Assembly: GCA_963851445.1 (NCBI GenBank)
Contig: CAWKPH010000001.1
Span: 617,363 to 681,362, forward strand
Reading direction: 5' to 3'
Length of the DNA stretch: 64,000 nt
From: an uncultured bacterium
GTDB lineage: Bacteria > Patescibacteriota > Minisyncoccia > Phycocordibacterales > Phycocordibacteraceae
Every line of letters begins with the position of its first letter. Position 1 is the stretch's first letter. Made by a program: the position numbers and the translations under genes. Positions 9,452-27,705 of this stretch are shown in pieces. The notes under the pieces are model-generated. The model saw nothing but the letters and a program-made list of their open reading frames with translations, made no database searches and was not told where the DNA came from.

Positions 9452-9539
9452 ATAATCATATATTTTTCATGGGAGACCAAATAATATTTATAAAATAAAG
9501 GTAAAAAAAGCAATAAGTCCCACCAGTTACCACCAGTCC

Positions 9540-9869: not shown

Positions 9870-9921
9870 TCGAGTCGAGCTCCAGTGAAAAGACTTTGCG
9901 GTCGGCACTGGAGCTCGACTC
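9870..9921. promoter_or_regulatory. perfect 17-bp inverted repeat (cgagtcgagctccagtg / cactggagctcgactcg) immediately upstream of prim-pol gene
   Basis: The inverted repeat is seen directly in the sequence. It shares an 11-mer (agtcgagctcc) with the sequence flanking the tRNA att core at 24816-24826. Confidence 0.5.
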
Positions 9922-9938
9922 GGGAACCCGACCGCAAC

Positions 9939-12703: not shown

Positions 12704-13854
12704 CAAAAACCACCTATCAAAATGAGCAATTAAAGAGAGCCTTCTTCACCTACCTACGAGGTGCGAAGGGCTTTGAGAAAAGCTCTATTCACTCATATGC
12801 AGAAGCAGTCTGGCAATGGCAACTCTTTTCGGACGGCGATGACTTTGCCAGTTTTGATGAGTCAAAGGCATTAGCGTTTAAGGAATGGCTCTCCACTCGA
12901 CCGACCAAGACCAAGGCGGGGCGGCTCAGTCTTGCCACCCAATATAACTATCTCCGTCGCGTGAAGCGCTTTTTCTCATGGCTTTCGGATCGTCCTGGCT
13001 TCAAGAATAAGATACTGAAGGGTGATGTTGAGTTCCTACGCCTATCCAACAAGGACGCTCTTATAGCCCGATCTGGCTCGACCAGAGCCAATCCAACTCT
13101 TGAAGAAGCAAGAAAGCTTATCGAGGGCATTGAAATAAAAAATGAGGTAGACCAGCGGGATAGGGCACTCATCAGCTTTGCCGCAATCACTGGCTGCCGC
13201 ATCTCCGCCCTCATTTCCCTTAGGATGAAGAATTTTGATAAGGAAAAACGCTTGGTGTCCCAAAATCCCGGCGATGGTGTTCATACCAAGGATTCCAAGA
13301 AAATACTCACGCCATTGTATCCAATAGGATGGGACGCGCCTGAGCAGTACTTCATGGAGTGGTTCGAGCATCGTGAGGCAACGGGCTCTCAAGCAGACGA
13401 CCCTATATTCCCAGCAACGGTCGGTGAGATTGGTCGCGTTAAACCAGCTCACGGTAGCGGATTCGTCGGAAATGTTTTTTGGAGCAACCCATCGGGAGCC
13501 CGTAAGGTATTCCAGAAGAGGTGTATGGAAGCGGGCGTGCCGTATTTTCATCCTCACTCGTTTCGACACTTGGCCGTAAGCGTCATGGCAAAAATACCCC
13601 TTACCGAAGAACAGAAGCGTGCCTTTAGCATCACGCTCGGTCATGCCAATGTCACCACCACGTTCGGCTCCTATTGCAGCCGAAACATGAGCAATGAGGA
13701 AGCAGTCCAAATCGTCGAACAGATTAAGGCTTTTGAAGCAAAAGAGGCAGTAAGTGGTCCCACTTTCACGAATGAAGACCGTGCTACTTTAATGGGACTT
13801 TTAGAGAAAATGAAGGCTGCGGAAATCCCCACAACCCCCGATTTGGTCGGTTGA
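12700..13854 (+). CDS. tyrosine site-specific recombinase/integrase (phage integrase family)
   Basis: Catalytic-domain pattern: …TGCRISALISLRMKNF… HPHSFRHLAVSVM… LGHANVTTTFGSY (R…HxxR…Y). Confidence 0.8.
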   Translation: MTKTTYQNEQLKRAFFTYLRGAKGFEKSSIHSYAEAVWQWQLFSDGDDFASFDESKALAFKEWLSTRPTKTKAGRLSLATQYNYLRRVKRFFSWLSDRPGFKNKILKGDVEFLRLSNKDALIARSGSTRANPTLEEARKLIEGIEIKNEVDQRDRALISFAAITGCRISALISLRMKNFDKEKRLVSQNPGDGVHTKDSKKILTPLYPIGWDAPEQYFMEWFEHREATGSQADDPIFPATVGEIGRVKPAHGSGFVGNVFWSNPSGARKVFQKRCMEAGVPYFHPHSFRHLAVSVMAKIPLTEEQKRAFSITLGHANVTTTFGSYCSRNMSNEEAVQIVEQIKAFEAKEAVSGPTFTNEDRATLMGLLEKMKAAEIPTTPDLVG

Positions 13855-13886
13855 CATCTATGTACAACTAGGAGTATGCTTTACGT

Positions 13887-14072
13887 ATGAAATTCTTAAC
13901 GAGAGAAGAAGTAGCCAAGTACCTGCGCGTGCATCCCCGCACCATCGAACGCTGGCTCAAAAGCGGGACCTTGAAGGGATATAAGCTAGGAACCGGAAAG
14001 ACTTCTTTGTGGCGAATATCGGAAGATGAGTTAAAGAAGTTTTTGGAGAAGAATAAAGCTAAACCAATATGA
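13887..14072 (+). CDS. small HTH DNA-binding protein (excisionase/MerR-like)
   Basis: 61 aa (LTREEVAKYLRVHPRTIERWLKSGTLKGYKLG), a typical HTH_17/Xis-like fold. Overlaps the recombinase start. Confidence 0.55.
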   Translation: MKFLTREEVAKYLRVHPRTIERWLKSGTLKGYKLGTGKTSLWRISEDELKKFLEKNKAKPI

Positions 14073-15787
14073 ACCAACCAACAACCATTCGTTATGACGT
14101 GTATCTGCGAAGGTCCAGCAGCGATGCAGAGGATAAGCAGGTTCAATCAATTCCCGACCAGCGACGGGAGCTGAACGAGTACATCGCAAGAAACAACCTC
14201 ACCATCGTCGGAGAGTTCGAGGAATCGCAAAGTGCTCACCATCCCGGCAGACCAGTGTTCAACGAGGTCATGGGGCGTATTGAGAAAGGAGTCTCGAACG
14301 GGTTGCTCGTGTGGCACGCCAATCGTACCTCAAGAAATCCTGTAGACAGCGGCGCTATTATCAACCTTATCGACGAAGGCAAGCTCTTTCATGTCAGAAC
14401 GCCTTCCCACATATACGGCAACACCTCTACAGAAAAGATGATGCTCGCGCTTGAGTGTATGATCGCCAAAAAGGACTCGGACGATAAGAGTGACGCGGTG
14501 AAGCGAGGGCTCCGTGGCCGCTACAAAAAAGGACTCCCGAACGGTGTTGCTCCCATCGGCTTCATTAACGATGTTTCCGTTGAGAAGGGCAATCGTGGCT
14601 GGCTCGTGGATGAGGAGAAGTTCCCGCTCATTGCTCAAGTCTTGGAACTCTTTCACACGGGCAAATATTCGACCAGAGCGTTGCTTCGAATCGCTAACGA
14701 TGAGATGGGACTGCGTACGCCGCAGCACAAGAAACAAGGTGGAAAGAAACTTGTGTATTCGCACTTTATGGAGACCGTGCTCCAGAATCCAGTGTATGCA
14801 GGATTCTTCTTTGCAGATACTGATACGGAAAAAGGTAAAAAGTTTGAACTCGATGCGAGAGTGCCGCGAGCTATCAGCGAGGAGACGTACTGGGAGAATC
14901 AGAAGATACTCGGAAACAAAGGACGAGCGCGACCTTCGAAGAACAAAACATCCTTCGCCTATGTTGGACCGACGACATGCGGCGGGTGCGATGGCGTGGT
15001 GACGGCCGAGCATAAGTACCAGGTCATTTGCGACTGTAAGCTCAAGTTCTATTATATGAATAAAACAGAGTGCCCGGGATGCGGCGTCGCGATAGATAAA
15101 ATGGTAAATCCGCTCTATCTCCACTACGTTTACTACCACTGCACCCGTACCAAAGATCCGACGTGCCGCGAGGGCAGCGTCCAGGAGCTCTACATCGACG
15201 ACACACTCGCTTCGTACTTCAAGGAGAACTTCAAAATCTCACAGTCCTTGCACGACTGGTGCATAGAGAACCTTGAGACCCTCGATATTAAGGATGCAAA
15301 GAATGATGTCGAGAAAACAGCATCGCTGGAGACCACGCTTTCCAAGAAGCAGCATGAGCAGAGGGAACTCGTGCTAATGAAGGCACGCGGACTTCTTGCT
15401 GACGATGCTGAGTTCCTTGAGTTGAAAGGCATCCTGAAGGCAGAAATTGACGTGCTAGAGCAAGCTTTGGCCAAGAATGGAAAACCTATAGACCCAGCGA
15501 AAATCAAGAAGGCTCGCAGAGCGTTTGACCTCTCCCTTGGTATAGAAGAAATCTTCAAAAGTGGTACCCCAGAGGAGAAAAAAGACACCCTACTGGAAAT
15601 CGGATCGAACCTAACTATAAAAGCCAAAACACTCACTGTTTACAACAGCGGAGTGTATAAAAAGATTATAGATGGCCTACTTACCGCCAAGGCGATAAAT
15701 CCTTCGTTCGAACCTGAAAATTGTGAGGCAGATGCTGAACGAAATCCTGTTTTTGCCTCTGTGTTTCCTACTCTGCTCCGCGGGTAG
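14069..15787 (+). CDS. large serine recombinase (resolvase N-domain + recombinase domain + zinc ribbon)
   Basis: Resolvase catalytic N-terminus (YDVYLRRSSSDAED…), then a recombinase domain and Cys-rich zinc ribbon (CGGCDG…CDC…CPGCG), then a coiled-coil tail. The stop codon lies inside the tRNA-derived repeat. Confidence 0.8.
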   Translation: MNQPTTIRYDVYLRRSSSDAEDKQVQSIPDQRRELNEYIARNNLTIVGEFEESQSAHHPGRPVFNEVMGRIEKGVSNGLLVWHANRTSRNPVDSGAIINLIDEGKLFHVRTPSHIYGNTSTEKMMLALECMIAKKDSDDKSDAVKRGLRGRYKKGLPNGVAPIGFINDVSVEKGNRGWLVDEEKFPLIAQVLELFHTGKYSTRALLRIANDEMGLRTPQHKKQGGKKLVYSHFMETVLQNPVYAGFFFADTDTEKGKKFELDARVPRAISEETYWENQKILGNKGRARPSKNKTSFAYVGPTTCGGCDGVVTAEHKYQVICDCKLKFYYMNKTECPGCGVAIDKMVNPLYLHYVYYHCTRTKDPTCREGSVQELYIDDTLASYFKENFKISQSLHDWCIENLETLDIKDAKNDVEKTASLETTLSKKQHEQRELVLMKARGLLADDAEFLELKGILKAEIDVLEQALAKNGKPIDPAKIKKARRAFDLSLGIEEIFKSGTPEEKKDTLLEIGSNLTIKAKTLTVYNSGVYKKIIDGLLTAKAINPSFEPENCEADAERNPVFASVFPTLLRG

Positions 15788-15808
15788 GATTCGAACCTAC
15801 GAACCTAC
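15775..15808 (-). repeat. att-like direct repeat: partial copy of tRNA 3' end (T-arm+acceptor)
   Basis: gctccgcgggtaggattcgaacctacgaacc matches gctccgcgggtagggatcgaacctacgacc at 24822-24851 (about 27/30). It contains the T-loop GGTTCGAATCC on the minus strand. Confidence 0.65.
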
Positions 15809-15937
15809 ATTTTCTGGGAATGGAAATCCATTTAGGAAGTACGGCAAATATCAAGTAAGTGCGAGAGATTATTAGCAAAAGTGCAATTACCACTGATACC
15901 CACACATCATCAAAACTAACCAACTCTTATCACTTCT

Positions 15938-15960
15938 AGGGCAACCCATGGGCAACCATG
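15938..15960. repeat. GGGCAACC tandem repeat (candidate integrase arm-type site), left arm
   Basis: gggcaacccatgggcaaccatgg, about 155 bp from the att core. A near-identical copy (gggcaacccgtgggcaaccactgg) lies at 24688-24712, about 130 bp from the other core. Confidence 0.45.
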
Positions 15961-16107
15961 GACATTACCAACAAAGAGCAGTACATCAGAGTGATAAAAG
16001 TTGAATCTTCAAACGCTGCTTCGCAGTGGTTCTTACTATTGCTGCTGGCTCAAACAATGCTCCCGCCCGGAAGCACGTTCTGTCCCAAGGAGCTATACTT
16101 AGACGTA

Positions 16108-16325
16108 TGAAAATGCACGAACTATTTTCCAAGACAGAGGTAGATGGACGTTTTGAAGCACAAATTGACATGGTTCTTGTGAACGGAAAAGAAATAAAAA
16201 AGGGGCAAAAAGTAGACCTCGATAGCTTAGGTCTTGATTCTTATTTTGACGACGAAGCTTCTGTAGGAGGCCAAATTGCAAATGGAGTGTTTTGTTGGAG
16301 TGGTACCGTACGCAGCGATGTTTGA
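16108..16325 (+). CDS. small hypothetical protein
   Basis: 72-aa ORF from an internal Met of the 16026..16325 ORF. No motif was recognised. Confidence 0.2.
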
Positions 16326-16330
16326 CCGTT

Positions 16331-17482
16331 CTATAATGGCTTTCTTACATCCGGACTTGGAACGTACCCGTAGTGCCTGAGAGCACCATTCAAAGTATTA
16401 AAGAACTCTGGATCAGGCGCAGGGTACTTTGGATGAGGAATAATCACACCCATACTCTCACCTTGCTCTGCCTCGTTCTCGCTCTGATAGTGATAAGAGA
16501 AGTTGGTAAAGAAAGCTGCATTTAAAGGATAGTCACCTGGGTCAAGTCCTTTTAGCTTTTTGGTTACCATCGTCTTTGCTTCTTGAACCCAAGGCTTTTC
16601 ATCCAATGCAACATTTGGAGTAGCAGGTAAGTTTACGTCTATGAAAATTGCGAAAGGAACGTCTTTCGGATTTTGAGTGAGGGCTTCGTTGAAAGTTCTT
16701 CTCATTCGTGCCGAGAGCTCTTCCACGGGGCTTCCTTCTTCGTGTATCACTCCAGCTCTGTGCTTGCTCTTAACCTCCACAGCGAGCGTAAAACCGGTTT
16801 CTCTGTGTTTAGCAACAAACTCACAATGCTTATTCTTACTATTTACATCTGTCCATTCGATGTCACAACCCATCCTTGAGAAAATAGCTGCTATTGCGAT
16901 TTCGTAACGAGCACCTTGATACTCTCGACGTGATTTCAAACGCTGAAGTAATGTCTCTGGCAATATGTTCTTCTGAACGAGACTGCTTACATCAAAAGCG
17001 AGCAAAAGTAATGATTTAACATACCCGTCCGGCATTGCGTTTAAGGGTCCATCTAAAGGTATGTTTCCTATACGTGCTCTCTCACGCAGTATCCACTCAC
17101 CAGTTTTTGCTAGGCATAAAGCGATGTAGTGCCGCTCATTGAGAGGAAGTTTCATTTGTTCTTCCCACCACTCGACTCCCAAGGTGCGTTTCAGCACATC
17201 CACTAAGAACTCATGGAAGGTCTGATTTACATCGTTAGAAGTGTAGATTGCACTTCCAAAAGCCCATACTTTCTTGCCATTAAAGATTACTGGCTCGACG
17301 TAGTGATCAAAGAGACCTGCTTGATGTCGAAGATCTCGTTCCGCTTGTTGTTTCTGGAAAAACTCGATAACTTCTTTGGGTATGGTAGGGGCAGGAGCCG
17401 TATCTTTATTCCAGCAACAATTTTTATACTTTATTCCGCTCCCGCAGTGACACGGAAGATTTCTGTCAGATCCTTTACCCAT
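16331..17482 (-). CDS. SEC-C motif-containing hypothetical protein
   Basis: N-terminal CHCGSGIKYKNCC (SEC-C metal-binding motif). The remaining ~350 aa have no recognisable catalytic motif. Confidence 0.55.
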   Translation of the reverse strand: MGKGSDRNLPCHCGSGIKYKNCCWNKDTAPAPTIPKEVIEFFQKQQAERDLRHQAGLFDHYVEPVIFNGKKVWAFGSAIYTSNDVNQTFHEFLVDVLKRTLGVEWWEEQMKLPLNERHYIALCLAKTGEWILRERARIGNIPLDGPLNAMPDGYVKSLLLLAFDVSSLVQKNILPETLLQRLKSRREYQGARYEIAIAAIFSRMGCDIEWTDVNSKNKHCEFVAKHRETGFTLAVEVKSKHRAGVIHEEGSPVEELSARMRRTFNEALTQNPKDVPFAIFIDVNLPATPNVALDEKPWVQEAKTMVTKKLKGLDPGDYPLNAAFFTNFSYHYQSENEAEQGESMGVIIPHPKYPAPDPEFFNTLNGALRHYGYVPSPDVRKPL

Positions 17483-17662
17483 ACCTACAATTTACTCCTT
17501 TTAACTCTTGATGCTAGGACGGGGAATGGCCTTCACTCCTATTATCTATATGAGAGTGTAGGGCAATCATTTTGTCTGAGAAGATTGTGACAGAACTTGA
17601 CAAAACACCTAAATATGTGTAATATCGTATACGGCTACAAGTCCCTTTACAAAAGGTTCAAC

Positions 17663-17751
17663 CAATCGAGACGAGCTTTTTACGGCTTACCTTCAGTGCG
17701 CAAGTTCTGGACGATTTTTACAACTAGGCCGTAAAAAGCTCGTCTCGATGT
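17663..17751. promoter_or_regulatory. long inverted repeat (21-bp stems: tcgagacgagctttttacggc / gccgtaaaaagctcgtctcga) in divergent intergenic region upstream of DGR target gene
   Basis: Perfect stems separated by about 38 nt. Located between the divergent genes 16331..17482(-) and 17761..18525(+). Confidence 0.45.
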
Positions 17752-17760
17752 GAGACAGAC

Positions 17761-18525
17761 GTGTCCGACGTATTCGGGCTATGGAGACCTTCGATGTCCA
17801 ACATCGACACTCTCGACAAGGCTACCAGTATTCTCGGCACCTGCATCAGGCTGGTGCGCTTGCTCGCTACGGGCGGCGCCACTATCGACCAGCTGCAAGC
17901 GCCCATCAGCATCAAGAGCAAGCGCGAAAACCTGCTGGCCTACCTCGCCGCCGACTGTCCCAAGTTCACGATCGAAGGCGGTGTCGCCATCGCTAAGGCG
18001 CCCAAAGCGCCGAAGCTTCCCGGCAGCGATCGCGTGAAAATCGTCAATAAGACGACCATCAAGGTCAACTGCGGTGCCGATTCCAAGCTCCCGTTCAACG
18101 GAGCCGTGATCGATACCAACTCGGGCGACCGCTGGGTCACGGTCCAAAAGCGCGGCGACGATCTCTATGTCGACGACGTGAAGGTCGACCTGCACCTCGA
18201 CGAAGGCCAGCAAAACGGCAAGGTGTTGCAAGGCCACAAGCTGCGCACCGCCCTCGCTAAGATGACGTCGGTTCATCCGAACGTCATCGACGCCGCCATC
18301 GAACATGGCCTGATGCCGGAAAGCTGGAAAGTGGATGAAAACGGCAAGACCCGCTTCATCTTCTCCTTCGCCGTCATCTTCCGCGACCCGACGCGCGACG
18401 ACCTGTGCGTCCGGTTCTGGTACTGGCGCGAGGGTCGCTGGCAGTCGAACTACCGCTGGCTCTACGATGGCTGGTACGGCATCAGCCCCACGGCCGTGCT
18501 CGGCAAGGTTGAACCTAAGGCCTAA
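17761..18525 (+). CDS. DGR target protein (putative C-type-lectin-fold variable protein) with C-terminal variable repeat
   Basis: The C-terminal ~40 codons (…DPTRDDLCVRFWYWREGRWQSNYRWLYDGWYGISPTAVLG) are homologous to the downstream TR. The region is markedly GC-rich. The real start may be the Met at 17797. Confidence 0.7.
   Translation: MSDVFGLWRPSMSNIDTLDKATSILGTCIRLVRLLATGGATIDQLQAPISIKSKRENLLAYLAADCPKFTIEGGVAIAKAPKAPKLPGSDRVKIVNKTTIKVNCGADSKLPFNGAVIDTNSGDRWVTVQKRGDDLYVDDVKVDLHLDEGQQNGKVLQGHKLRTALAKMTSVHPNVIDAAIEHGLMPESWKVDENGKTRFIFSFAVIFRDPTRDDLCVRFWYWREGRWQSNYRWLYDGWYGISPTAVLGKVEPKA
18379..18506 (+). repeat. DGR variable repeat (VR)
   Basis: 128 bp aligned with the TR at an offset of +521. 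About 16 mismatches, every one at a position where the TR has A. Confidence 0.8.
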
Positions 18526-18579
18526 GCTCCTCGGGTCTCTCAGACTCTTAGGACTTAGTTCTGCATTTTGGGCTCCGCA

Positions 18580-18625
18580 TTTCGTCATCGCGACGGGTGC
18601 GGAGCTTTTCTTTTGCACCACAAGG
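18580..18625 (+). terminator. GC-rich hairpin + T-run downstream of VR/target gene (terminator and/or DGR homing-associated stem-loop)
   Basis: gggctccgca…tgcggagc stem followed by ttttcttttg. It lies about 75 nt after the VR end. Confidence 0.45.
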
Positions 18626-18899
18626 GCATTTCTATTTCTAAATCGCTTCGCTCAAAACAAAATAATGTCATATAGTAGAAACGGTAGTAGGCGAGTACGG
18701 AAGCGATTACGGTTGCTTCCTGCCGAATCCAGTATCCATAGACCGAGAGCGTTTCTGATTACGATTTCAAACGGAGAGGTGTATGTAGAAACTTCAAAAA
18801 TGAAGATACTTGGTGCGAAGCGCTAGGGCATTGCGATGCCGAATACGATTCAACCCGGAGAGTACTCGATGGGTGGTGGCACAGATGGCGCTCCGCACA

Positions 18900-19027
18900 T
18901 TCCGCAACCCGACGAACGACAACCTGTACGTCCGGTACTGGTACTGGAACGAGGGTCGCTGGCAGTCGAACTACAACTGGCTCAACAATGACTGGAACGG
19001 CAACAACCCCACGGCCGTGCTCGGCAA
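18900..19027 (+). repeat. DGR template repeat (TR), non-coding
   Basis: Adenine-rich template (AAC codons in the VR frame). It differs from the VR only at TR adenines. The 3' 21 bp (ccccacggccgtgctcggcaa) are identical in VR and TR. Confidence 0.8.
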
Positions 19028-19033
19028 CTCTCT

Positions 19034-19423
19034 TCATTTCTCTCCCGTACTAACGGGAGAGTTTTGTTTCGTGAGTTGTCCGTTCCATCCGCCGAGCATT
19101 TTTCCAACGTCTTCGAGCGGGACAGACAAGATTGCGTATTTTTTCGTATCAAATGATTTCGTTTCCCAAAGCACCATGAGCAGCACTTTCAGAGTGTCGA
19201 GCTTGCGTATCGCAAGTCGCACGTACGGTTGCTTTTCATTTCGCGCGAGGAAACCAGCACAGGCTATCGCTTCTATGATTTCAATAAAGAGAGTGTCCAC
19301 GCGTTCGCCCGAACTATACCGATGTATCTTCGGAATCGTCTGGTAAAATCCACACCATAGGACATATGTCGATTTCACACGCTCTAACACTGGTAAAAGG
19401 TTCGGGGGGGGGGGTACTTTCAT
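19034..19423 (-). CDS. avd: Avd-like accessory variability determinant (four-helix-bundle protein), encoded on the opposite strand
   Basis: 129 aa. The pattern LERVKSTYVLWCGFYQTIPKIHRYS…LDTLKVLLMVLWE…ILSVPLEDVGKMLGGW resembles bAvd/PF05635 four-helix-bundle proteins. The N-terminal poly-Pro is encoded by a poly-G/C homopolymer. Confidence 0.65.
   Translation of the reverse strand: MKVPPPPNLLPVLERVKSTYVLWCGFYQTIPKIHRYSSGERVDTLFIEIIEAIACAGFLARNEKQPYVRLAIRKLDTLKVLLMVLWETKSFDTKKYAILSVPLEDVGKMLGGWNGQLTKQNSPVSTGEK
19403..19414. repeat. homopolymeric G tract (~10-12 nt) inside the avd start region / upstream of RT
   Basis: tcgggggggggggtac, seen directly. The exact length is ambiguous in my reading (the ORF coordinates imply 11-12 G). 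Confidence 0.6.
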
Positions 19424-19428
19424 AGGTT

Positions 19429-20127
19429 ATGGATTGTATTCAGTATACGGATACATACGAGAATATCATCTCCGTGGAGAATCTCCTTGAAGCGTGGCGG
19501 GAGTTTAAAAGAGGCAAAAAGCATCGCGCTGATGTGCAGCATTTCGAGAGGAACCTGTTATCCCACGTACTGAATCTGCATGAAGACCTGTCCGTTATGC
19601 GATACGTGCATGACGGATACGAAGCATTCCGCATCACCGATCCGAAGCCGCGAGACATACACAAGGCAAGCGTACGGGACAGGCTCCTCCATCATGCAAT
19701 TTATCGAAAGCTCTACCCATTCTTTGACCGCGTGTTCATAAGCGACTCGTATTCATGCAGGAAGGATAAGGGCTCGCATAAGGCGCTCGCGCGCTTCCGT
19801 GCTTATGCCTATAAAGCCTCATCAAACCACATGCGTACCGTATGGATTCTGAAATGTGACATACGAAAGTTCTTCGCTTCGATAGACCATGGAGTGCTAG
19901 TGAATATTCTGAAGCGGTATATCCCCGACGAACGCATCATGTGGCTGTTCGGACAGGTGATCATGAGCTTCAACACTGAGCGGCAGGGAACAGGGCTTCC
20001 GCTAGGCAACCTCACCTCGCAGCTCTTGGTGAATGTGTACATGAACGATTTCGACCAGTTCGCAAAACATAACCGGTATGCTGTTTTTAGTCTTCCTCAT
20101 CACTGTGATATGGCGAGGAATGAATAA
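19429..20127 (+). CDS. DGR-type reverse transcriptase, apparently truncated (fingers/palm motifs 1-4 present; YxDD not found)
   Basis: The RT motifs are present: ILKCDIRKFFASIDH and …GLPLGNLTSQLLVNVYMNDFDQF. The ORF stops about 20 aa later (…KHNRYAVFSLPHHCDMARNE*) without a YADD box, and no continuing frame was found. Confidence 0.65.
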   Translation: MDCIQYTDTYENIISVENLLEAWREFKRGKKHRADVQHFERNLLSHVLNLHEDLSVMRYVHDGYEAFRITDPKPRDIHKASVRDRLLHHAIYRKLYPFFDRVFISDSYSCRKDKGSHKALARFRAYAYKASSNHMRTVWILKCDIRKFFASIDHGVLVNILKRYIPDERIMWLFGQVIMSFNTERQGTGLPLGNLTSQLLVNVYMNDFDQFAKHNRYAVFSLPHHCDMARNE

Positions 20128-20413
20128 CCTAGAAGCACTCTCACCCCTGAATGAGGATGAACTCAAGGGTCCAGAATGGAGGAATCCCAAGTCATTCAGC
20201 AAGGCCAGATGGACCATACCGATACTATGGATCGGGACGCTGGGCATGTTGATACTTGCCTGGGATGGAATTGGAAATGACTTTTCATCGCAACCTGTGA
20301 TTACATGGTCCATTCTCATACTTTTCTTCGGCACTATGTGGTATCGGGGGGCGCATGAATTGCCACCTTTCACCCTTTCAAGCCTATAAAGGCCATTTGT
20401 TATAATAGAAAAT

Positions 20414-21217
20414 ATGCCACTTCCCCTCGATCTCGTCCTCGTCCGCCACGGCCAGTCTGAGGGCAATGCCGCGAAGCGCATGTCTGAGCAGGGAGACAAT
20501 ACTGCATACGACCTCTTGGCTAATCGCCACACGCGAAGCTATCGCCTTTCGGACCTCGGAAGGGACCAGGCCATGAAAGCCGGATTCTGGATCCAGAGGG
20601 AGTTCATTAGGCTTGATAAGAAGCCAATGTTCGACCGCTACATCACTTCTGAATACAACCGCGCGATGGAGACAGCGGCCCTCCTCGATATCCCGAACGC
20701 TGAATGGTTCCGGAACTTCTATTTAACAGAACGCTCATGGGGCGACCTCGAAGACTGTCCTGAAGACGAGCGCCAAGAGAAGTTTGGTGCTGCTCTCAAG
20801 ATGCGGGTTATCGAGCCTTTCTTTTGGCGACCTCCCAACGGCGAATCCTTCGCTGAGCTCTGCTTGCGCCTTGATCGCGTCCTCGACACCCTCCATCGGG
20901 AAAACAGCGATCAACGGGTTATCATCGTCTGTCATGGCGAAGTGATGCGCGCTTTCCGTGTTCTGCTTGAGCGCATGCCGCAGCAGAAGTTTAAGGAACA
21001 ATACCTTTCCAAGGAGAAGGACGATGCCATCTTCAACTGCGAGATCTTTCACTACACACGCAAGGATCCGAAGACGGGCGAAATTGCGGACCATGCCAAC
21101 TGGATGCGGCGTGTACGCCCTAATGAGGCACCTGTATGGGATACGGGATGGCAGACGATCAAACGTCCGCGTTATTCCAATGAGGAATTGCTGGATATCG
21201 CAAGAAAGATAGGATAG
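20414..21217 (+). CDS. histidine phosphatase superfamily (phosphoglycerate-mutase-like) protein
   Basis: N-terminal LVLVRHGQSEGN signature (the RHG motif). 267 aa. Confidence 0.7.
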   Translation: MPLPLDLVLVRHGQSEGNAAKRMSEQGDNTAYDLLANRHTRSYRLSDLGRDQAMKAGFWIQREFIRLDKKPMFDRYITSEYNRAMETAALLDIPNAEWFRNFYLTERSWGDLEDCPEDERQEKFGAALKMRVIEPFFWRPPNGESFAELCLRLDRVLDTLHRENSDQRVIIVCHGEVMRAFRVLLERMPQQKFKEQYLSKEKDDAIFNCEIFHYTRKDPKTGEIADHANWMRRVRPNEAPVWDTGWQTIKRPRYSNEELLDIARKIG

Positions 21218-21240
21218 GATTCCCAGACTAATCCGATGCC

Positions 21241-22035
21241 ATGAATGCAAGGCCTAATCCTGAGATACATATTCCCGAGTTTAAAATACTTGAGAACATT
21301 AATGAAAATGAGGTTAGCAACGCTCTTAATGAGCTTATTGAACTAGGAGGAAACATCACTAACTACAGTCAGAAGTACATTGCAGATGCACATGTCAGCA
21401 TTAATCCATATTTCTACGACGACCTCAGACAATTTTTCATATCTTGGCGAGGTTGCGCAAGGCGAATCCTGAGAAATGCAGGAGAGGCCTTTATGGACGA
21501 AAGTGAGGTCATGGATGAATCAGACAGCATTCCTTTTTTCTCAGTGATAGATGAGAAGCGAGATTCTTACTCAGTAGATACTCAAGAATTGATCTCTGGT
21601 ATACAGCGCGAAACCTCTCGACGACTGGAAACACTACATAAAGCAAGGGGAAAAATCATTGAACAGGAAAATGAGAAAGTTAAGACTAATACACCTATAG
21701 CTTACAATCATTTAACGAGTGAGTTATATGTACGTGGTATTCCCGTACTTATTAATGCGAGAATGACATTAGGAAGTTCAGGGAATAAAGAAACAGAGAT
21801 GCTGGCGATTCTTTTCAACCAGCCAACGAAATCAATGCCTTGTGATGATTTCTGGATGGAGTGGCAGTCTTTTGAAAATAAAGAGGCATATGAGCAAAAA
21901 GCAAAGAAAAACTGGACATCGATATATCAAGCAGCAAATAGGATTAATAAGAAAGTTAGCTATCTCACAAGCAGGAAAAAGCTTATAGATGTGACAAAAT
22001 ATCAGGTTTCGATTCATGTAGAATACCAATCTTAG
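21241..22035 (+). CDS. hypothetical protein
   Basis: 264-aa ORF with no recognisable motif. Located within element B. Confidence 0.45.
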   Translation: MNARPNPEIHIPEFKILENINENEVSNALNELIELGGNITNYSQKYIADAHVSINPYFYDDLRQFFISWRGCARRILRNAGEAFMDESEVMDESDSIPFFSVIDEKRDSYSVDTQELISGIQRETSRRLETLHKARGKIIEQENEKVKTNTPIAYNHLTSELYVRGIPVLINARMTLGSSGNKETEMLAILFNQPTKSMPCDDFWMEWQSFENKEAYEQKAKKNWTSIYQAANRINKKVSYLTSRKKLIDVTKYQVSIHVEYQS

Positions 22036-22078
22036 TTAGCTAACTCTTCGTAACTAGTTTTCTATACGATGGCTCACA

Positions 22079-23374
22079 ATGAGTCAGGAGAAACCATATT
22101 CGCCAAATATCTCTATCGACCCTCTTATTTCGATAGATCCTCGCACTGTTAACCCCTTCAAGCTACCTGATGATTTAGGGTGGGTAGAGGAGTTAGGAAA
22201 GAGTCGGGAGGTTGTACAAGAGATCTCTCATGACGATAAAAAATCACAAGCAGTTCTCACGCGTCTTTCAGATATAACCTCAAGGGCGGTTAGCTGGCTT
22301 TGGCATGAGCGTATCGCGCTTGGGAAGCTCACTATTATCTCTGGGGATCCTGGCCTCGGAAAGAGCTTGTTGACCGCGACAATGGCGGCGATTGTTTCAA
22401 AGGGCGGCTCGTGGCCGCTTGAAGAAACCCCATGTCCAATTGGAAGCGTCGTATTACTTTCTGCTGAAGATGATCCAGCAGACACTATCAAGCCTCGTTT
22501 GGAAGCTGTAAGCGCTGATTGCGAACGCATTCACATACTGCAAGCCATTAAGGACATTGATTCAGCAGGAAATCCCACAGAACGCATGTTTTCACTTAAG
22601 CGTGATATTGCTCTGCTCGAAGACTTACTCCTTTCCTTGCCAGATTGTCGCCTCATCGTTATTGATCCAATCTCAGCGTATCTAGAAGGTGCAGATAGTC
22701 ATAAGAACAGCGACGTTCGAGGACTGCTAGCTCCACTTGCCAAGTTCGCGTCAAATCATAATGTTGCAGTCGTTTTAGTTCAACACTTAAACAAAAACAG
22801 CGGAGGAAGCGCTATGTATCGCTCGATGGGTTCTGTGGCGTTCGTTGCTGCCGTACGAGCTGCATACGTCGTTATTAAAGATCAGAATGACCCCGAGCGA
22901 CGGCTCGTGATGCCGGTCAAGAATAATCTCGCAACAGACAATACTGGTTTGGCTTACTCGGTTCATAACGCAGATAATGGTGCACCAGTCATCGCATGGG
23001 AGAACGAAGCGATAACCATAACAGCAGATGAGGCACTTACTCCGTTAGATTCTAATGTGGAGAAAACAGACACTGATTGGGCCATAGATTTTTTGGAAGG
23101 TGAGCTTTCTGACGGTCCTGTACCAGTTGCTGAAATCAACAAAAGTGCAAAGCAAGTTGGTGTGTCACCAAAATGTCTAAGACGTGCAGCAGAAAAGCTC
23201 GGAATCAAGAGGAAGAAAGATGGCTTCAATAAAGGCTGGGTATGGTCGTTGCCTAGGCACGAAGATGCCCAAGAATACGAAGATGCCCACCTTCAAAACG
23301 AGGGCATCTTGGGAGCAGAAGGGCATCTTCGAAAGGAGATAGGAGATTTAATCGTAAAGGAGGGTTTGGTATGA
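22079..23374 (+). CDS. RepA-like RecA-fold ATPase (AAA_25-type) replication/primase-helicase loader protein of mobile element
   Basis: Walker A motif ISGDPGLGKSLLTATMAA, Walker-B-like RLIVIDPISAYL, then a C-terminal winged-helix-like region. Typical of ICE/plasmid RepA proteins. Confidence 0.65.
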   Translation: MSQEKPYSPNISIDPLISIDPRTVNPFKLPDDLGWVEELGKSREVVQEISHDDKKSQAVLTRLSDITSRAVSWLWHERIALGKLTIISGDPGLGKSLLTATMAAIVSKGGSWPLEETPCPIGSVVLLSAEDDPADTIKPRLEAVSADCERIHILQAIKDIDSAGNPTERMFSLKRDIALLEDLLLSLPDCRLIVIDPISAYLEGADSHKNSDVRGLLAPLAKFASNHNVAVVLVQHLNKNSGGSAMYRSMGSVAFVAAVRAAYVVIKDQNDPERRLVMPVKNNLATDNTGLAYSVHNADNGAPVIAWENEAITITADEALTPLDSNVEKTDTDWAIDFLEGELSDGPVPVAEINKSAKQVGVSPKCLRRAAEKLGIKRKKDGFNKGWVWSLPRHEDAQEYEDAHLQNEGILGAEGHLRKEIGDLIVKEGLV

Positions 23375-23616
23375 TTAAGGTACCCGTCGGTGCTGCCGAT
23401 GATGTACTGCACTTTGAAAACAATTTCGAAGGTTTCTCTCTCACGCTGTTGACCATACCTGAAGTAGCGAAGTTTCTTAGAATCTCATCTACTGGAGTGA
23501 GACGCTTACAAGAACGGCGAATTATTCCCTTCATCAAGGTTGGTGGCAGTGTGCGCTTTCTCAAAGAAGACATTCTTTCTTATTTGCGAAGGCAGCGAGT
23601 GGAATCCATCGAGTAA
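23371..23616 (+). CDS. excisionase/HTH DNA-binding protein
   Basis: 81 aa (LTIPEVAKFLRISSTGVRRLQERRIIPFIKVGGSVRF), a helix-turn-helix of the Xis/MerR type. Sits directly upstream of the integrase. Confidence 0.55.
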   Translation: MIKVPVGAADDVLHFENNFEGFSLTLLTIPEVAKFLRISSTGVRRLQERRIIPFIKVGGSVRFLKEDILSYLRRQRVESIE

Positions 23617-23626
23617 TAGATGATAT

Positions 23627-24769
23627 ATGGCAGTACGAATGATTAAAAAATCGTGGTGGGTGGACATACGCTTCAATCACAGACGATATCGAAAGCGAAG
23701 TCCTGAAAACTCAAAGGCAGGCGCTCAGGCCTATGAAGCTGTCTTGCGACAGAAACTGGCACGAGGAGAGGAAATAGAGAAAACCCAGCTCGTCTTATCG
23801 AAAGAAGAATCGTTTGAGACCTTTGCTTGGAAGTGGTATGACGAATACGTTATACCAAACAACAAGTACTCGACGCAGCAAATGAAGAAGTACATTCTGG
23901 CTGGCTCCCTGATTCCTTTCTTCGGAAAGATACCTGTCCGAAAGATTACCTCGCACCATATAGATCAATTCAAGGCACATTGCCTTAAAAAGGATTCGAG
24001 CCATAAAACAGTGAATAATCATCTTGGGATATTGAGTAAGCTCCTCATGACTGCATATGAATGGATGGAACTTGAATCTGTACCTCCTAAAATAAAACCA
24101 CTCAAATGCCTACCGCCTAGGACAGACTATCTCTCGGCAGAGGAATGTCAGCTGCTCCTATCACACTCGCAAGGTGTGATTCATGAGATGATTCTCACCG
24201 CGTTGCGGACAGGAATGCGACAAGGTGAACTGAAAGGTCTTCAGTGGACTTCAATTGAGTGGGAAAATCGCAATGTGGTGGTGCGACATTCCCAAGATGA
24301 TTATCGCAAGGTACTTGGCACGCCAAAAAGCAACCGAGAACGCAATATCCCTCTAGATATTGATGTATACGAAACGTTCCTGAAGAAAAAAGCTACAGTT
24401 GGGTACGTATTCCTAACTGCTAAAGGAAAACTCTTCACCCATGACCGTATGACAGTCGCAATAGCTCGAGTATGCAAAAAGGTTGGACTACGAAAAATTG
24501 GCTGGCACACGTTACGCCACACCTTCGCAACTCAGCTCGCCACGAAAGGCGTTCCGTTAACAACAATTCAATCACTTCTAGGCCACTCAAGCATCTCTAC
24601 CACCATGAGATACGCGCATGTTGCGCCTTCAACAATGCGGTCAGCAATAGATCTCTTGAGCCCGAGAACGGCCATCCCGATGGATTTTGGGCAACCCGTG
24701 GGCAACCACTGGCTTGCGTCGCTCGACAAAGAAGCGGAAGAGAAAACCCTTAAGGCTAAAAACCCATGA
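23627..24769 (+). CDS. int: tyrosine integrase (phage integrase family) adjacent to tRNA att site
   Basis: …LTALRTGMRQGELKGLQW… GWHTLRHTFATQLATKG… LGHSSISTTMRYAHV (R…HxxR…Y catalytic pattern). Ends 55 bp from the tRNA 3' end. Confidence 0.8.
   Translation: MAVRMIKKSWWVDIRFNHRRYRKRSPENSKAGAQAYEAVLRQKLARGEEIEKTQLVLSKEESFETFAWKWYDEYVIPNNKYSTQQMKKYILAGSLIPFFGKIPVRKITSHHIDQFKAHCLKKDSSHKTVNNHLGILSKLLMTAYEWMELESVPPKIKPLKCLPPRTDYLSAEECQLLLSHSQGVIHEMILTALRTGMRQGELKGLQWTSIEWENRNVVVRHSQDDYRKVLGTPKSNRERNIPLDIDVYETFLKKKATVGYVFLTAKGKLFTHDRMTVAIARVCKKVGLRKIGWHTLRHTFATQLATKGVPLTTIQSLLGHSSISTTMRYAHVAPSTMRSAIDLLSPRTAIPMDFGQPVGNHWLASLDKEAEEKTLKAKNP
24688..24712. repeat. GGGCAACC tandem repeat (candidate arm-type site), right arm, inside int 3' end
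   Basis: gggcaacccgtgggcaaccactgg. Matches 15938-15960 at 22/24 positions. Confidence 0.45.
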
Positions 24770-24862
24770 GTTTACTTGGTGAAAACGACAAACACCACGT
24801 AATGTGGTGTTTGTCAAGTCGAGCTCCGCGGGTAGGGATCGAACCTACGACCAACTCGTTAC

Positions 24863-25415
24863 ATCGCTCCTCTCGTTACCGTGAGGGATGGACTATATCA
24901 TCATCGGTTCTCGATGCGAGGCGCTTCCCAAATCGCCATTGCGATTAAGTACTCCCTTACGGGATAGTCTCTACACCTTCCGAGATTTTGATCTCGGCTT
25001 GGCTCGGGATCGCCCATCCTTCGATATTCGACGGATTAGGGTTTCCCCGAATTCACCTCGTTTTTCATCCAGAATTCCTTCTGAAAGCTGCGTGATGCCA
25101 TCGTGTACTTCGGCGTGACAATTTGCGCAAAGTAATACGCATTTTTCCAATTCAGCCAGCATCTTTCCCCACGACCTTGTAAGGCCCCTCACCGAAAGAC
25201 CGAAATCTTTCTTTGAAGGATCTAGGTGATGGAATACCATTGCTCGTCTAGATCGGTCATATCCGCATAAAATGCACTTGCCTCCACCGTATTCGAGAGC
25301 CATATCGCGAAGTTTTTTACGCCTTGCAGAAACAGCTTTCTTCAAATATTCGGCACGATCAGCATAGGTTCGCCTTTCTGGCATATACACATGAATATAC
25401 CATTGGGCTTGTCCA
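24863..25415 (-). other. ~550-nt intervening sequence in tRNA anticodon loop (putative self-splicing group I-type intron) carrying an HNH homing-endonuclease ORF
   Basis: The inferred exon/intron junctions obey group I rules (5' exon ends in U, insert ends in G). The intron class was not verified structurally. Confidence 0.45.
24971..25390 (-). CDS. HNH endonuclease (homing-endonuclease-like) inside tRNA intron
   Basis: CILCGYDRS…FHHLDPSKKDF…LLCANCHAEVH (Cys pairs plus HNH catalytic histidines). A basic C-terminal tail. Confidence 0.7.
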   Translation of the reverse strand: MYMPERRTYADRAEYLKKAVSARRKKLRDMALEYGGGKCILCGYDRSRRAMVFHHLDPSKKDFGLSVRGLTRSWGKMLAELEKCVLLCANCHAEVHDGITQLSEGILDEKRGEFGETLIRRISKDGRSRAKPRSKSRKV

Positions 25416-25456
25416 CAGCGAGCCGCTCTACCACTGAGCTACCGCGGAATACTATT

Positions 25457-25482
25457 GCCGAGCTTTTGTGGCTCGGCAAACC
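25457..25482. promoter_or_regulatory. perfect 9-bp stem hairpin (ttgccgagc…gctcggcaa) just upstream of the tRNA 5' end
   Basis: Seen directly in the sequence. Function unknown. Confidence 0.3.
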
Positions 25483-25633
25483 TCATTCTAACGGAAATCG
25501 TAGGTTCGGCAATGGGAGAAAATGAGATTATTGAAGTTAAAGGGAAATCGAACAAGAATCAATATCCCCAATCACAATCTCTTTAGACAAGGTTGCTATA
25601 CTGCAGTTATACCCGTAACCACAGTTTTATTCT

Positions 25634-25870
25634 ATGCTCACACTCTATGTAAAAACGGGATGTCCCTTTTGCGCTAAGGTTCTTCATGCAGGTGAAGAAT
25701 TAAAAGTGAGTTTTACCGAAAAGAATATTGCTGACTCCAATATTGCTAGCGAGCTCATTGAGCGTGGTGGTAAAAGACAAGTGCCGTATCTCATCGACGA
25801 CGGAAATGATACGGAAATGTATGAGTCGGATGCGATCATTAACTACCTCAATGAACAGTATGGAAATTAA
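25634..25870 (+). CDS. glutaredoxin-like protein
   Basis: CPFC active site (LYVKTGCPFCAKV…). 78 aa. Confidence 0.7.
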   Translation: MLTLYVKTGCPFCAKVLHAGEELKVSFTEKNIADSNIASELIERGGKRQVPYLIDDGNDTEMYESDAIINYLNEQYGN

Positions 25871-27665: not shown

Positions 27666-27705
27666 GCAAAGACTATAGCAAATAAAACCAAGAGCGGATG
27701 AACTC

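What the first reader, a model, noticed from the sequence alone, without database searches (positions are those of the whole stretch)
15775..24855. ~9-kb integrative element at tRNA 3' end with direct repeats and GGGCAACC arm-type repeats on both arms
A 30-bp imperfect copy of the tRNA T-arm/acceptor end (15775-15808) repeats the intact tRNA end at 24822-24851. A tyrosine integrase plus an Xis gene sit immediately beside the tRNA. A tandem GGGCAACC-N3-GGGCAACC motif occurs about 130-155 bp inside each boundary, as expected for arm-type integrase binding sites split between attL and attR. Cargo is the DGR, a histidine phosphatase, a SEC-C protein and a RepA-like ATPase.
Basis: partly seen in the sequence, partly recalled or inferred. 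Interest (0 to 1): 0.7.

Follow-up and report, generated by a model that had tools for sequence, protein, structure and literature searches.

The report
Integrative island at split tRNA-Asn
This is a real 9-kb mobile island that a tyrosine integrase inserted into the end of a tRNA-Asn gene of a Patescibacteria-like bacterium; it is an ordinary kind of element, but its relatives show that one pair of integrase-binding repeats is written into the integrase gene's own coding sequence.

Summary
A 28-nt repeat (15775-15802 / 24823-24850, 26/28) copies the 3' end of a minus-strand tRNA-Asn(GTT). That tRNA is split by a 553-nt group I intron, so ARAGORN missed it. Excisionase and a 380-aa tyrosine integrase abut the tRNA. 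GGGCAACC-N3-GGGCAACC occurs only at 15939-15958 and 24689-24708. Relatives settle the arm-site question. Five or more split-type elements at other tRNAs have the same layout. About 24 loci carry an intact attP (pair, tRNA-fragment core, pair) at the 298-bp spacing obtained by joining the window's ends. The motif co-varies between the two arms across sub-lineages. The int-internal pair is fixed at synonymous codons (GGG 34/35 against 17% background). None of 94 other tRNA-Asn loci carries this integrase, and L117 shows the exact empty-site junction.
Corrections: the right pair lies inside the int reading frame (peptide FGQPVGNxW). The left flank is a second element (B) whose serine-recombinase gene ends inside the tRNA copy. 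The DGR's reverse transcriptase is cut off before YADD, while the same sample holds an intact variant with other cargo. This is a new member of a known kind; interest is moderate.

The parts
15775..15802 (.). attL core: the distal direct repeat, a displaced copy of the tRNA-Asn 3' end (T-loop type TTCGAAT). It overlaps the last codons and the TAG stop of element B's serine recombinase.
   Evidence: 26/28 match, 0 in shuffles; TTCGAAT in 103 of 122 related tRNA-Asn genes; same ORF/tRNA overlap in L117, L140, L118, L122
15925..15985 (+). P' arm: conserved non-coding block holding the tandem pair GGGCAACC-CAT-GGGCAACC (15939-15958). It is flanked by the family-wide motifs TTATCACTT and ATTACCAACAAAGAGCAGTACA.
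16331..17482 (-). Cargo: 383-aa protein with an N-terminal SEC-C motif.
   Evidence: PF02810, 28 bits
17761..18525 (+). DGR target gene (254 aa) with the variable repeat VR at 18379-18506 at its 3' end.
   Evidence: (D1)
18900..19027 (+). DGR template repeat TR. All 16 differences from VR lie at TR adenines.
19034..19423 (-). DGR accessory protein, bAvd-like (129 aa).
   Evidence: PF22296, 32.6 bits, below the 40-bit cut-off; called bAvd on L004
19429..20127 (+). DGR reverse transcriptase, truncated to 232 aa. It departs from the intact 328-aa allele after window 20074, six codons before the YADD box.
20075..20091 (.). 17-nt junction unique to the window, joining the truncated RT to the downstream module (deletion or recombination scar, or an assembly join).
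20414..21217 (+). Cargo: histidine phosphatase superfamily protein (267 aa).
   Evidence: PF00300, 95 bits
21241..22035 (+). 264-aa protein with no family match.
22079..23374 (+). AAA_25 (RepA/RecA-like) ATPase, 431 aa. Its stop overlaps the xis start.
   Evidence: PF13481, 114 bits
23371..23616 (+). Excisionase / recombination directionality factor (81 aa, HTH_17).
   Evidence: TIGR01764, 36.9 > 28.8; conserved next to int in 6 relatives
23627..24769 (+). Tyrosine integrase (380 aa): N-terminal three-strand-plus-helix domain (1-45), SAM-like core-binding domain, catalytic domain, and a C-terminal tail with FGQPVGNHW.
24689..24708 (+). P arm: tandem pair GGGCAACC-CGT-GGGCAACC inside the int reading frame (codons for G-Q-P-V-G-N).
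24786..24816 (-). 13-bp perfect hairpin just downstream of the tRNA 3' end, supplied by the element. Probably a terminator for the tRNA and, on the other strand, for int.
   Evidence: -20 kcal/mol, z -3.8; the consensus scan did not call it a terminator
24823..24850 (.). attR core: the proximal direct repeat, now the working 3' end of tRNA-Asn (T-loop type TTCGATC, element-supplied).
24824..25448 (-). Target gene tRNA-Asn(GTT): 3' exon 24824-24861, group I intron 24862-25414 (with HNH-like ORF 24971-25390), 5' exon 25415-25448.
   Evidence: PMC13011429
7490..15787 (+). Neighbouring element B (left limit uncertain): two unknown ORFs, Prim-Pol 9864-12269, HTH_17 12269-12703, tyrosine recombinase 12700-13854, large serine recombinase 14069-15787.

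Best explanation
Element A (window 15803-24850; 9,048 bp repeat to repeat) is an integrative genomic island of the lambda-Int type.

How it works (inferred from the known mechanism of heterobivalent tyrosine integrases):
- The 380-aa integrase binds two kinds of DNA. Its catalytic and core-binding domains bind the core, which mimics the T-arm and acceptor end of tRNA-Asn. A small N-terminal domain binds tandem 'arm' sites (unit about TGGGCAAC, 11-bp period) roughly 130-160 bp on either side of the core.
- In the free circular form, the two arm pairs and the core form one ~300-bp attP directly after the int gene.
- Recombination with tRNA-Asn, most likely within the 12 bp TCGAACCTACGA (tRNA positions ~47-58), split attP into attL (core plus P' pair) and attR (P pair plus core).
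- The element supplied a new 3' end and a trailer hairpin for the tRNA. The old 3' end was left as the distal repeat.
- The adjacent excisionase would direct the reverse reaction.

Order of events: the target had already been rebuilt by an earlier insertion of element B, a serine-recombinase element whose recombinase gene ends inside the tRNA copy. So B inserted first, then A.

Cargo: the int-xis-attP module is the conserved unit and cargo is freely exchanged among relatives. Here the cargo is a SEC-C protein, a DGR that diversified its target in the past but now lacks the RT catalytic motif, a histidine phosphatase, an unknown protein and an AAA_25 ATPase.

Shown: the repeats, the genes, the empty site in relatives, the family-wide attP architecture, co-variation of the arm motif, and DNA-level selection on it.
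Inferred: binding of the arm sites by Int, the crossover position, the order of insertion, and present-day mobility.
For: - Repeats and motif statistics.
- tRNA identity and splicing.
- Gene families.
- Catalytic residues invariant in 26 homologues (R198, K234, H294, R297, H320, Y329).
- Split-type relatives with the same layout (L007 tRNA-Met, L041 tRNA-Gly, L021 tRNA-Cys; L054 and L049, tRNA not identified). Pair-to-repeat distances are 89-136 and 142-183 nt.
- Intact attP in about 24 of 76 loci, with a tRNA 3' fragment between the pairs and 230-420 bp spacing (mostly 240-307). The window's virtual attP is 298 bp.
- The arm motif differs between sub-lineages but matches between the two arms of each element (ACGGCAAC, TGGACAC, GTCACA, TGGGAAC).
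- Codon fixation: GGG 34/35 (background 0.17), GGC 23/23 (0.34), GTG 25/26 (0.31), CAA 30/35 (0.52), AAC 29/34 (0.55). The spacer third base is free.
- The invariant peptide is predicted disordered (pLDDT < 50 at 356-362).
- Empty sites: 0 of 94 tRNA-Asn loci carry this integrase, and L117 has the attB junction.
- The closest integrase (75% identical, L205) sits at tRNA-Asn with the identical 28-nt core and a homologous P' arm.
- Only xis and int are shared with relatives.
- The AT/GA difference between the two repeat copies stays linked to the left-hand flanks, which places the crossover to its right: read directly.
Against: - No read-level or junction evidence for excision or a circular form.
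- The Logan contig ends at 15799 and 24852 lie in tRNA-derived sequence. They can be explained by other organisms in the sample sharing tRNA-Asn k-mers.
- No empty site was found in the same species. The attB example comes from a distant relative.
- The window's internal structure differs from the dominant variant in an independent assembly of a sample holding identical flanks (L004). The element as given may therefore be a deletion derivative, or less likely a mis-join.
- Many relatives keep an intact attP on long chromosomal contigs, which the simple model does not explain.
Confidence: 0.85

Rival explanations
1. A and B together form one composite island of about 17 kb (roughly 7.5-24.85 kb) that moves as a unit. 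On this view the 15775 repeat is only an internal scar.
For: - B directly abuts A, and no chromosomal DNA separates them.
- B has no recognisable tRNA-derived repeat at its own far end.
- Tandem arrays at one tRNA can be mobilised together in other systems (general knowledge).
Against: - The P' arm with its pair lies just inside 15775, exactly where the family architecture puts the end of an A-type element.
- B-type serine recombinase genes end inside an intact tRNA-Asn in genomes that have no A-type element. B is therefore an independent element family.
- The closest A-type relative, L205, has no serine recombinase gene among its called genes.
Confidence: 0.07
2. The element is an immobile remnant. 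The repeats and arm sites are genuine relics of a past integration, but the island can no longer excise.
For: - The RT is truncated and a 17-nt scar joins two modules, so the element has suffered at least one internal deletion.
- The two core copies differ at 2 of 28 positions.
- The closest relative, L205, has lost its distal core copy, so decay does occur in this lineage.
Against: - int, xis, both arm pairs and a 12-bp identical crossover segment are all intact.
- The two mismatches lie outside the inferred overlap region.
- The int ORF keeps all catalytic residues.
Confidence: 0.25
3. The 9-kb unit as presented is partly an assembly artefact. Two related elements or strains were joined at 20075-20091, so the left part (SEC-C and DGR) and the right part (phosphatase to int) do not belong to one molecule.
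For: - In short-read contigs of sample ERR11630394, the left part continues into an intact RT and quite different genes (DUF4238, PycTM) on L004.
- The right part is a separate contig (L002) that starts at 20092 with a different first base.
- The 17-nt join is in neither contig.
Against: - Chimeric joins normally occur at shared repeats, but here the join is unique sequence with no shared 12-mers nearby.
- Both halves carry exactly the complementary att parts (P' with core on the left, P with core on the right), with matching arm motifs and the family-typical summed spacing of 298 bp.
- The window comes from a 687,765-bp contig.
Confidence: 0.1
4. The GGGCAACC pairs are not integrase-binding sites. 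The right pair exists only because the protein needs FGQPVGN, and the left pair is chance or a remnant of an old integrase gene.
For: - The right pair is coding and the peptide is nearly invariant.
- A 12-mer, ATCACTTCTAGG, next to the left pair also occurs in the int gene at 24571 (D19).
Against: - Synonymous positions are fixed far beyond codon background, while the spacer base is free.
- The peptide is predicted disordered.
- Distal pairs sit beyond the int ORF or in the far arm in dozens of elements and co-vary with the int-internal pair.
- The order of pair and repeat on the left is the reverse of what an int-gene remnant would give.
- TTATCAC next to the distal pair is a family-wide P' feature.
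Confidence: 0.04

Closest known systems
tRNA-targeting genomic islands and prophages with lambda-type (heterobivalent) tyrosine integrases (lambda, HP1, L5, the Yersinia HPI, Islander-type islands)
   Same: - The int gene lies next to the tRNA 3' end.
- The element regenerates the tRNA 3' end and leaves a displaced fragment as the distal direct repeat.
- An excisionase gene sits next to int.
- Tandem arm-type repeats distinct from the core lie on both arms.
- The N-terminal domain has the three-strand-plus-helix topology.
- The crossover is inferred in the T-loop/T-stem region, one of the sublocations described for tRNA-integrating elements (general knowledge; cf. PMC4383910).
   Different: - The P-arm pair lies inside the integrase's own reading frame and fixes a conserved but apparently unstructured peptide, FGQPVGNxW.
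- The family spans Patescibacteria and several Proteobacteria and other phyla at 41-63% identity.
- No phage or conjugation genes are present in the window's element.
- No curated family model names this integrase.
Diversity-generating retroelements (Bordetella phage BPP-1 type; common in Patescibacteria)
   Same: - A TR/VR pair of 128 nt with all 16 differences at TR adenines.
- VR lies at the 3' end of the target gene.
- A bAvd-like accessory gene and an RT gene are adjacent.
   Different: - The RT stops before the YADD catalytic box in this window. An intact 328-aa allele exists on L004.
- avd is on the opposite strand, between TR and RT.
- The DGR is carried as cargo of a small tRNA-integrating island.
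Large serine recombinase elements (XisF / Ccr / phage serine-integrase type): element B
   Same: The 572-aa protein has resolvase and recombinase domains, distant NCBIfam matches to XisF and Ccr, and sits at the very end of the element next to the target.
   Different: - The recombinase ORF runs 13 nt into the tRNA-Asn 3' end and stops at the TAG in the T-stem. This holds in at least five diverged relatives.
- The element also carries a tyrosine recombinase and a Prim-Pol.
Group I introns at position 35/36 of Patescibacteria tRNA-Asn (Nakagawa et al. 2026, PMC13011429)
   Same: Same tRNA, same insertion position (after U35), missed by standard tRNA finders, and matches Rfam Intron_gpI.
   Different: [quoted passage not shown] Here the intron-bearing tRNA also serves as an integration target.

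Membership tests
tRNA-integrating genomic island (tyrosine integrase) | Tyrosine integrase gene adjacent to the 3' end of a tRNA gene | tested here: met
   The int stop is at 24769 and the tRNA-Asn discriminator base is at 24824; the genes converge.
tRNA-integrating genomic island (tyrosine integrase) | A displaced fragment of the tRNA 3' end forms a direct repeat at the far end | tested here: met
   15775-15802 against 24823-24850: 26/28 identical, with none found in shuffles.
tRNA-integrating genomic island (tyrosine integrase) | Unoccupied target in related genomes | tested here: met
   0 of 94 tRNA-Asn loci have this integrase. L117 has the exact attB junction. These are relatives, not the same species.
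tRNA-integrating genomic island (tyrosine integrase) | Excision to a circle with attP, regenerating attB | not testable with these tools
   No reads are available. The contig ends at the att sites are ambiguous.
Heterobivalent (lambda-type) tyrosine integrase | Catalytic R-K-H-R-H-Y residues | tested here: met
   R198, K234, H294, R297, H320 and Y329 are invariant in 26 sequences. PF00589 scores 102 bits.
Heterobivalent (lambda-type) tyrosine integrase | N-terminal arm-binding domain (three-stranded sheet plus helix) | tested here: inconclusive
Heterobivalent (lambda-type) tyrosine integrase | Arm-type repeats, distinct from the core, on both sides of the core in attP | tested here: met
   The window's pairs, intact attP in relatives, co-variation between arms and codon fixation.
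Heterobivalent (lambda-type) tyrosine integrase | Physical binding of Int to the arm sites | not testable with these tools
   This needs EMSA or footprinting.
Diversity-generating retroelement | TR/VR pair with adenine-specific differences | tested here: met
   16 of 16 differences lie at TR adenines.
Diversity-generating retroelement | Reverse transcriptase with the catalytic YxDD motif | tested here: not met
   The window's RT ends at 232 aa, before YADD. L004 has the intact 328-aa form. The window therefore holds a defective DGR.
Large serine recombinase integrative element (element B) | Resolvase catalytic domain plus recombinase domain in a protein of about 500 aa or more, at the element's end | tested here: met
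   PF00239 at 61.6 bits and PF07508 at 23.5 bits; 572 aa; the ORF ends at 15787.
Large serine recombinase integrative element (element B) | Defined attL and attR and an empty site | tested here: inconclusive
   The right end overlaps the tRNA copy, as in 10 of 92 relatives. The left end was not found.
Position 35/36 group I intron of Patescibacteria tRNA-Asn | Group I intron between anticodon positions 35 and 36, with the spliced product a canonical tRNA-Asn(GUU) | tested here: met
   Rfam RF00028 at 65.5 bits. In-silico splicing gives tRNA-Asn(GTT), and ARAGORN with introns allowed reports i(35,553). See PMC13011429.

The most novel reading that the evidence does not exclude
In this very large integrase family (over 2,400 database proteins, from Patescibacteria to Alpha-, Delta- and Gammaproteobacteria), the near-invariant C-terminal peptide FGQPVGNxW is not conserved for any protein function. 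It is conserved because those codons are the P-arm binding sites of the integrase itself. The enzyme would then bind its own coding sequence, and site and N-domain co-evolve. This could also let Int regulate its own expression. Because the P and P' arms stay constant while the tRNA-like core between them is exchanged, it would also explain how one family re-targets many different tRNAs.
Probability: 0.55. Interest if true: 0.55.

Novelty: new member of a known kind. Interest (0 to 1): 0.4.

Why it matters
Well-defined mobile elements in Patescibacteria are still few. This window gives a precisely bounded example, with both att sites, arm sites, an excisionase and an empty-site comparison.

It shows that DGRs and other accessory or defence-like genes travel on small tRNA-integrating islands in these reduced genomes.

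It shows that a single intron-bearing tRNA-Asn can be hit in turn by two unrelated recombinase systems.

At family level, a conserved int-xis-attP module whose arm sites can be read straight from the integrase gene gives a simple rule for three tasks: finding element ends, predicting attP in thousands of metagenomic integrases, and building integration tools for organisms that cannot yet be manipulated genetically.

Tried and rejected
- Default ARAGORN found no tRNA at the site. Rfam plus in-silico splicing resolved this.
- I searched for a third copy of the tRNA end that might bound element B or a larger composite. Only chance-level 11-12-mers turned up.
- I first read the Logan contig ends at 15799, 24852 and 25415 as signs of excision or intron polymorphism. 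I then rejected that reading as proof. All three lie in tRNA-derived k-mers that other organisms in the metagenome may share, and the exact end positions do not fit simple attB or attP branches.
- I considered that the left pair might be a remnant of an integrase 3' end, because the 12-mer ATCACTTCTAGG is shared with int. I rejected this because the pair-to-repeat order is reversed and TTATCAC is a family-wide P' feature.
- The tandem-array explanation for the contiguous attP loci is not supported within +-10 kb, except in L072.
- A Pfam scan of Int residues 1-70 at E <= 10 found nothing.
- NCBIfam has no specific model for the integrase.
- Exact-protein look-up of the intron ORF found nothing.
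- Literature searches found no prior description of this integrase family or of arm sites inside an int reading frame. The library is incomplete, so this is weak evidence of novelty.
- The consensus terminator scan did not call the hairpin at 24786-24816, although it folds strongly.

Full report
**1. What is in the sequence**

The reported repeat is real. Positions 15775-15802 and 24823-24850 match at 26 of 28 positions, and no such pair arose in 100 shuffles. ARAGORN in default mode finds no tRNA nearby, so the "intact tRNA" had to be checked.

Rfam finds a group I intron at 24869-25146 on the minus strand (65.5 bits). Joining ...GGCTCGCTGT (ending at 25415) to TAACGAGT... (starting at 24861) gives a canonical tRNA-Asn(GTT). 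ARAGORN with introns allowed reports the same gene with a 553-nt intron after position 35.

The target is therefore a minus-strand, intron-split tRNA-Asn:
- 5' exon 25448-25415
- intron 25414-24862, with an HNH-like ORF at 25390-24971
- 3' exon 24861-24824

This intron class is already published for Patescibacteria (PMC13011429). The right repeat is the reverse complement of tRNA positions ~47-74.

GGGCAACC occurs only four times in 64 kb, as two tandem pairs at 15939-15958 and 24689-24708.

**2. Genes**

Pfam and NCBIfam support these calls:

| Coordinates | Strand | Product |
|---|---|---|
| 16331-17482 | - | SEC-C protein |
| 17761-18525 | + | DGR target; VR at 18379-18506 |
| 18900-19027 | + | TR |
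| 19034-19423 | - | bAvd-like protein |
| 19429-20127 | + | RT fragment |
| 20414-21217 | + | histidine phosphatase |
| 21241-22035 | + | unknown protein |
| 22079-23374 | + | AAA_25 ATPase |
| 23371-23616 | + | excisionase |
| 23627-24769 | + | tyrosine integrase |

All 16 TR/VR differences are at TR adenines, so the DGR has been active in the past.

The right flank is housekeeping: hibernation factor, fmt, def and priA. The integrase homologues carry Patescibacteria names.

**3. The left flank is a second mobile element (B)**

From about 7.5 kb to 15.8 kb lie two unknown ORFs, a Prim-Pol, an HTH_17 protein, a tyrosine recombinase and a 572-aa large serine recombinase. The serine recombinase's TAG stop lies inside the left repeat.

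A metagenome scan with the tRNA-Asn 3' half returned 120 loci. In 10 of the 92 informative loci, a diverged serine recombinase (23-31% identity) converges on tRNA-Asn. In L117, L140, L118 and L122/L202 its ORF ends ...LRG*/...LRE*, with the stop in the T-stem of an intact tRNA.

B therefore belongs to an independent family that also targets tRNA-Asn and carries the tRNA's 3' end within its recombinase gene terminus. The simplest history (inference) is that B integrated first and rebuilt the tRNA end. Element A then integrated into the rebuilt tRNA and pushed B's copy away as the "left repeat".

**4. Empty site**

None of the 94 tRNA-Asn loci with enough downstream sequence has an integrase of A's family within 3 kb.

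L117 reads GCTCCGCGGGTAGGATTCGAACCTACGA|CCAACTCGTT. That is the left half of the window's attL fused to the right half of its attR.

The T-loop type of the left copy (TTCGAAT) is the common one (103 of 122). The type now attached to the tRNA (TTCGATC) is rarer (14 of 122). The rarer type also occurs in the closest relative element, L205, which has the identical 28-nt core.

The AT/GA difference stays linked to the left-hand flanks. The crossover should therefore lie in the 12 identical bases TCGAACCTACGA (inference).

**5. Are the GGGCAACC pairs arm-type sites?**

The integrase belongs to a very large family: 2,448 hits at E <= 1e-20 and 549 loci among GTDB species representatives, in Patescibacteria, Alpha-, Delta- and Gammaproteobacteria and other phyla.

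The right pair encodes part of a nearly invariant peptide, FGQPVGNxW, in an otherwise variable C-terminal tail. Four lines of evidence show that the constraint acts on the DNA:

(a) Synonymous positions are fixed in 35 genes, while the spacer third base varies freely.

| Codon | Observed | Background |
|---|---|---|
| GGG (first Gly) | 34/35 | 0.17 |
| CAA (Gln) | 30/35 | 0.52 |
| GTG (Val) | 25/26 | 0.31 |
| GGC (second Gly) | 23/23 | 0.34 |
| GTC (Val in place of second Gly) | 11/11 | 0.25 |
| AAC (Asn) | 29/34 | 0.55 |

(b) The AlphaFold model gives pLDDT < 50 for residues 356-362, so the peptide appears unstructured.

(c) The same layout recurs in split-type relatives: L007 (tRNA-Met), L041 (tRNA-Gly), L021 (tRNA-Cys), and L054 and L049, where no tRNA was identified. 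Each has a 23-30-nt (up to 64-nt in L041) tRNA-derived direct repeat, a proximal pair 89-136 nt before it, and a distal pair 142-183 nt inside the far repeat.

(d) In 24 of 76 loci the two pairs are contiguous, 230-420 bp apart, with a tRNA 3' fragment between them. This is an intact attP. Joining the window's two ends through the repeat gives 298 bp, squarely in that range.

The motif also changes between sub-lineages (ACGGCAAC, TGGACAC, GTCACA, TGGGAAC), and the two arms of each element change together. The P' flank (TTATCACTT... before the pair, ATTAnnAnCAAnnAnCAGTACA after it) is conserved family-wide and is present in the window.

**6. The integrase**

The catalytic residues are invariant.

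**7. Backbone and cargo**

Only xis and int are shared with the split-type relatives. Their cargo includes methyltransferase/restriction-like, toxin-antitoxin-like, umuDC-like and Prim-Pol genes. The mobile unit is an int-xis-attP module with exchangeable cargo.

**8. Structural variant inside the element**

Short-read contigs from sample ERR11630394 are identical to the window over 4069-15799 (L003) and 25415-37057 (L001).

L004 matches 15770-20074 (99.95%) and then continues into an intact 328-aa RT with YADD, followed by DUF4238, PycTM and other genes. L002 covers 20092-24852.

The window's RT therefore stops six codons before the catalytic box, and a 17-nt junction (20075-20091) is unique to the window. 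The window most likely holds a deletion or recombination derivative. An assembly mis-join is possible but unlikely, because there is no shared repeat at the join and the two halves carry complementary att parts.

The other contig ends (15799, 24852, 25415) fall in tRNA-derived sequence. They cannot be taken as evidence of excision or intron polymorphism.

**9. What remains open**

- Present-day mobility.
- Physical Int binding to the arm sites.
- B's far boundary.
- Why so many relatives keep an intact attP on long chromosomal contigs. There is no second core within +-10 kb, and L015's neighbours are phage/plasmid-like.

**10. Verdict**

The element is a new member of a well-known kind, a tRNA-integrating island with a lambda-type integrase.

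The added value is the nested history at an intron-bearing tRNA-Asn, the defective DGR cargo with an intact variant in the same community, and the family-wide finding that one arm-site pair is embedded in, and shapes, the integrase coding sequence.

The literature searches found no earlier description of that last point. The library is not exhaustive.

Noticed in passing
window 24824-25448 (-): tRNA-Asn(GTT) is split by a 553-nt group I intron after anticodon position 35, and the intron carries an HNH-like ORF (25390-24971). About 40 of 120 metagenomic tRNA-Asn loci with the same 3' half also have non-exon sequence ending in G at this position. The intron class is published (PMC13011429), which reports that most copies lack endonuclease genes.
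   Followed up: yes
window ~7490-15787; L117, L140, L118, L122, L202: A second integrative element (B) carries Prim-Pol, HTH_17, a tyrosine recombinase and a large serine recombinase whose ORF ends 13 nt inside the tRNA-Asn 3' end. The same overlap is seen in 23-31%-identical recombinases next to intact tRNA-Asn genes (10 of 92 loci). B's left boundary was not found.
   Followed up: partly
L004 (Logan ERR11630394) against window 15770-20074: The same sample holds a variant with an intact 328-aa DGR RT, followed by DUF4238, PycTM-like and other genes in place of the window's phosphatase-to-int module. How L004 connects to an integrase or tRNA is unknown.
   Followed up: partly
L008, L013-L017, L019, L023-L025, L027-L029, L033, L036, L067, L071, L083, L084: Intact attP (P pair, tRNA-fragment core, P' pair) lies directly after int on long chromosomal contigs, including an isolate Bradyrhizobium japonicum genome. 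There is no second core copy within +-10 kb. This is not explained by simple integration. L072 is a true tandem, with a truncated second int next to tRNA-Ile.
   Followed up: partly
L008, L013, L027 (Syntrophobacteraceae MAGs): The P' arms (~150 bp) are nearly identical while the tRNA-like cores differ. This suggests that target specificity is exchanged as a module between constant arms.
   Followed up: no
window ~19404: A 2-nt (GG) difference between the window and L004 falls near the start of the bAvd gene (129 aa in the window, 118 aa as called on L004). It may be a homopolymer error or a real variant.
   Followed up: no
window 15792-15807 and 25494-25508: CGAACCTA is tandemly duplicated right at the inner edge of the left repeat. 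An inverted near-copy, CGAACCTACGATTTC, lies about 50 nt upstream of the tRNA 5' end. Its significance is unknown and it may be chance.
   Followed up: no
window 24786-24816 (-): A perfect 13-bp hairpin followed by GUUUUCA lies just past the tRNA 3' end, inside element-derived DNA (-20 kcal/mol, z -3.8). It is probably a two-way terminator for the tRNA and int.
   Followed up: partly
L205 (ENA ERZ22857436): The closest integrase (75% identity) sits at an intron-less tRNA-Asn with the identical 28-nt core and a homologous P' arm. It carries umuD/umuC-like cargo and has no recognisable distal core copy.
   Followed up: partly
window 1-2000: GC content drops to 0.32-0.35 over a 587-aa multi-pass membrane protein gene, against about 0.47-0.51 elsewhere. 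This may be another acquired region.
   Followed up: no
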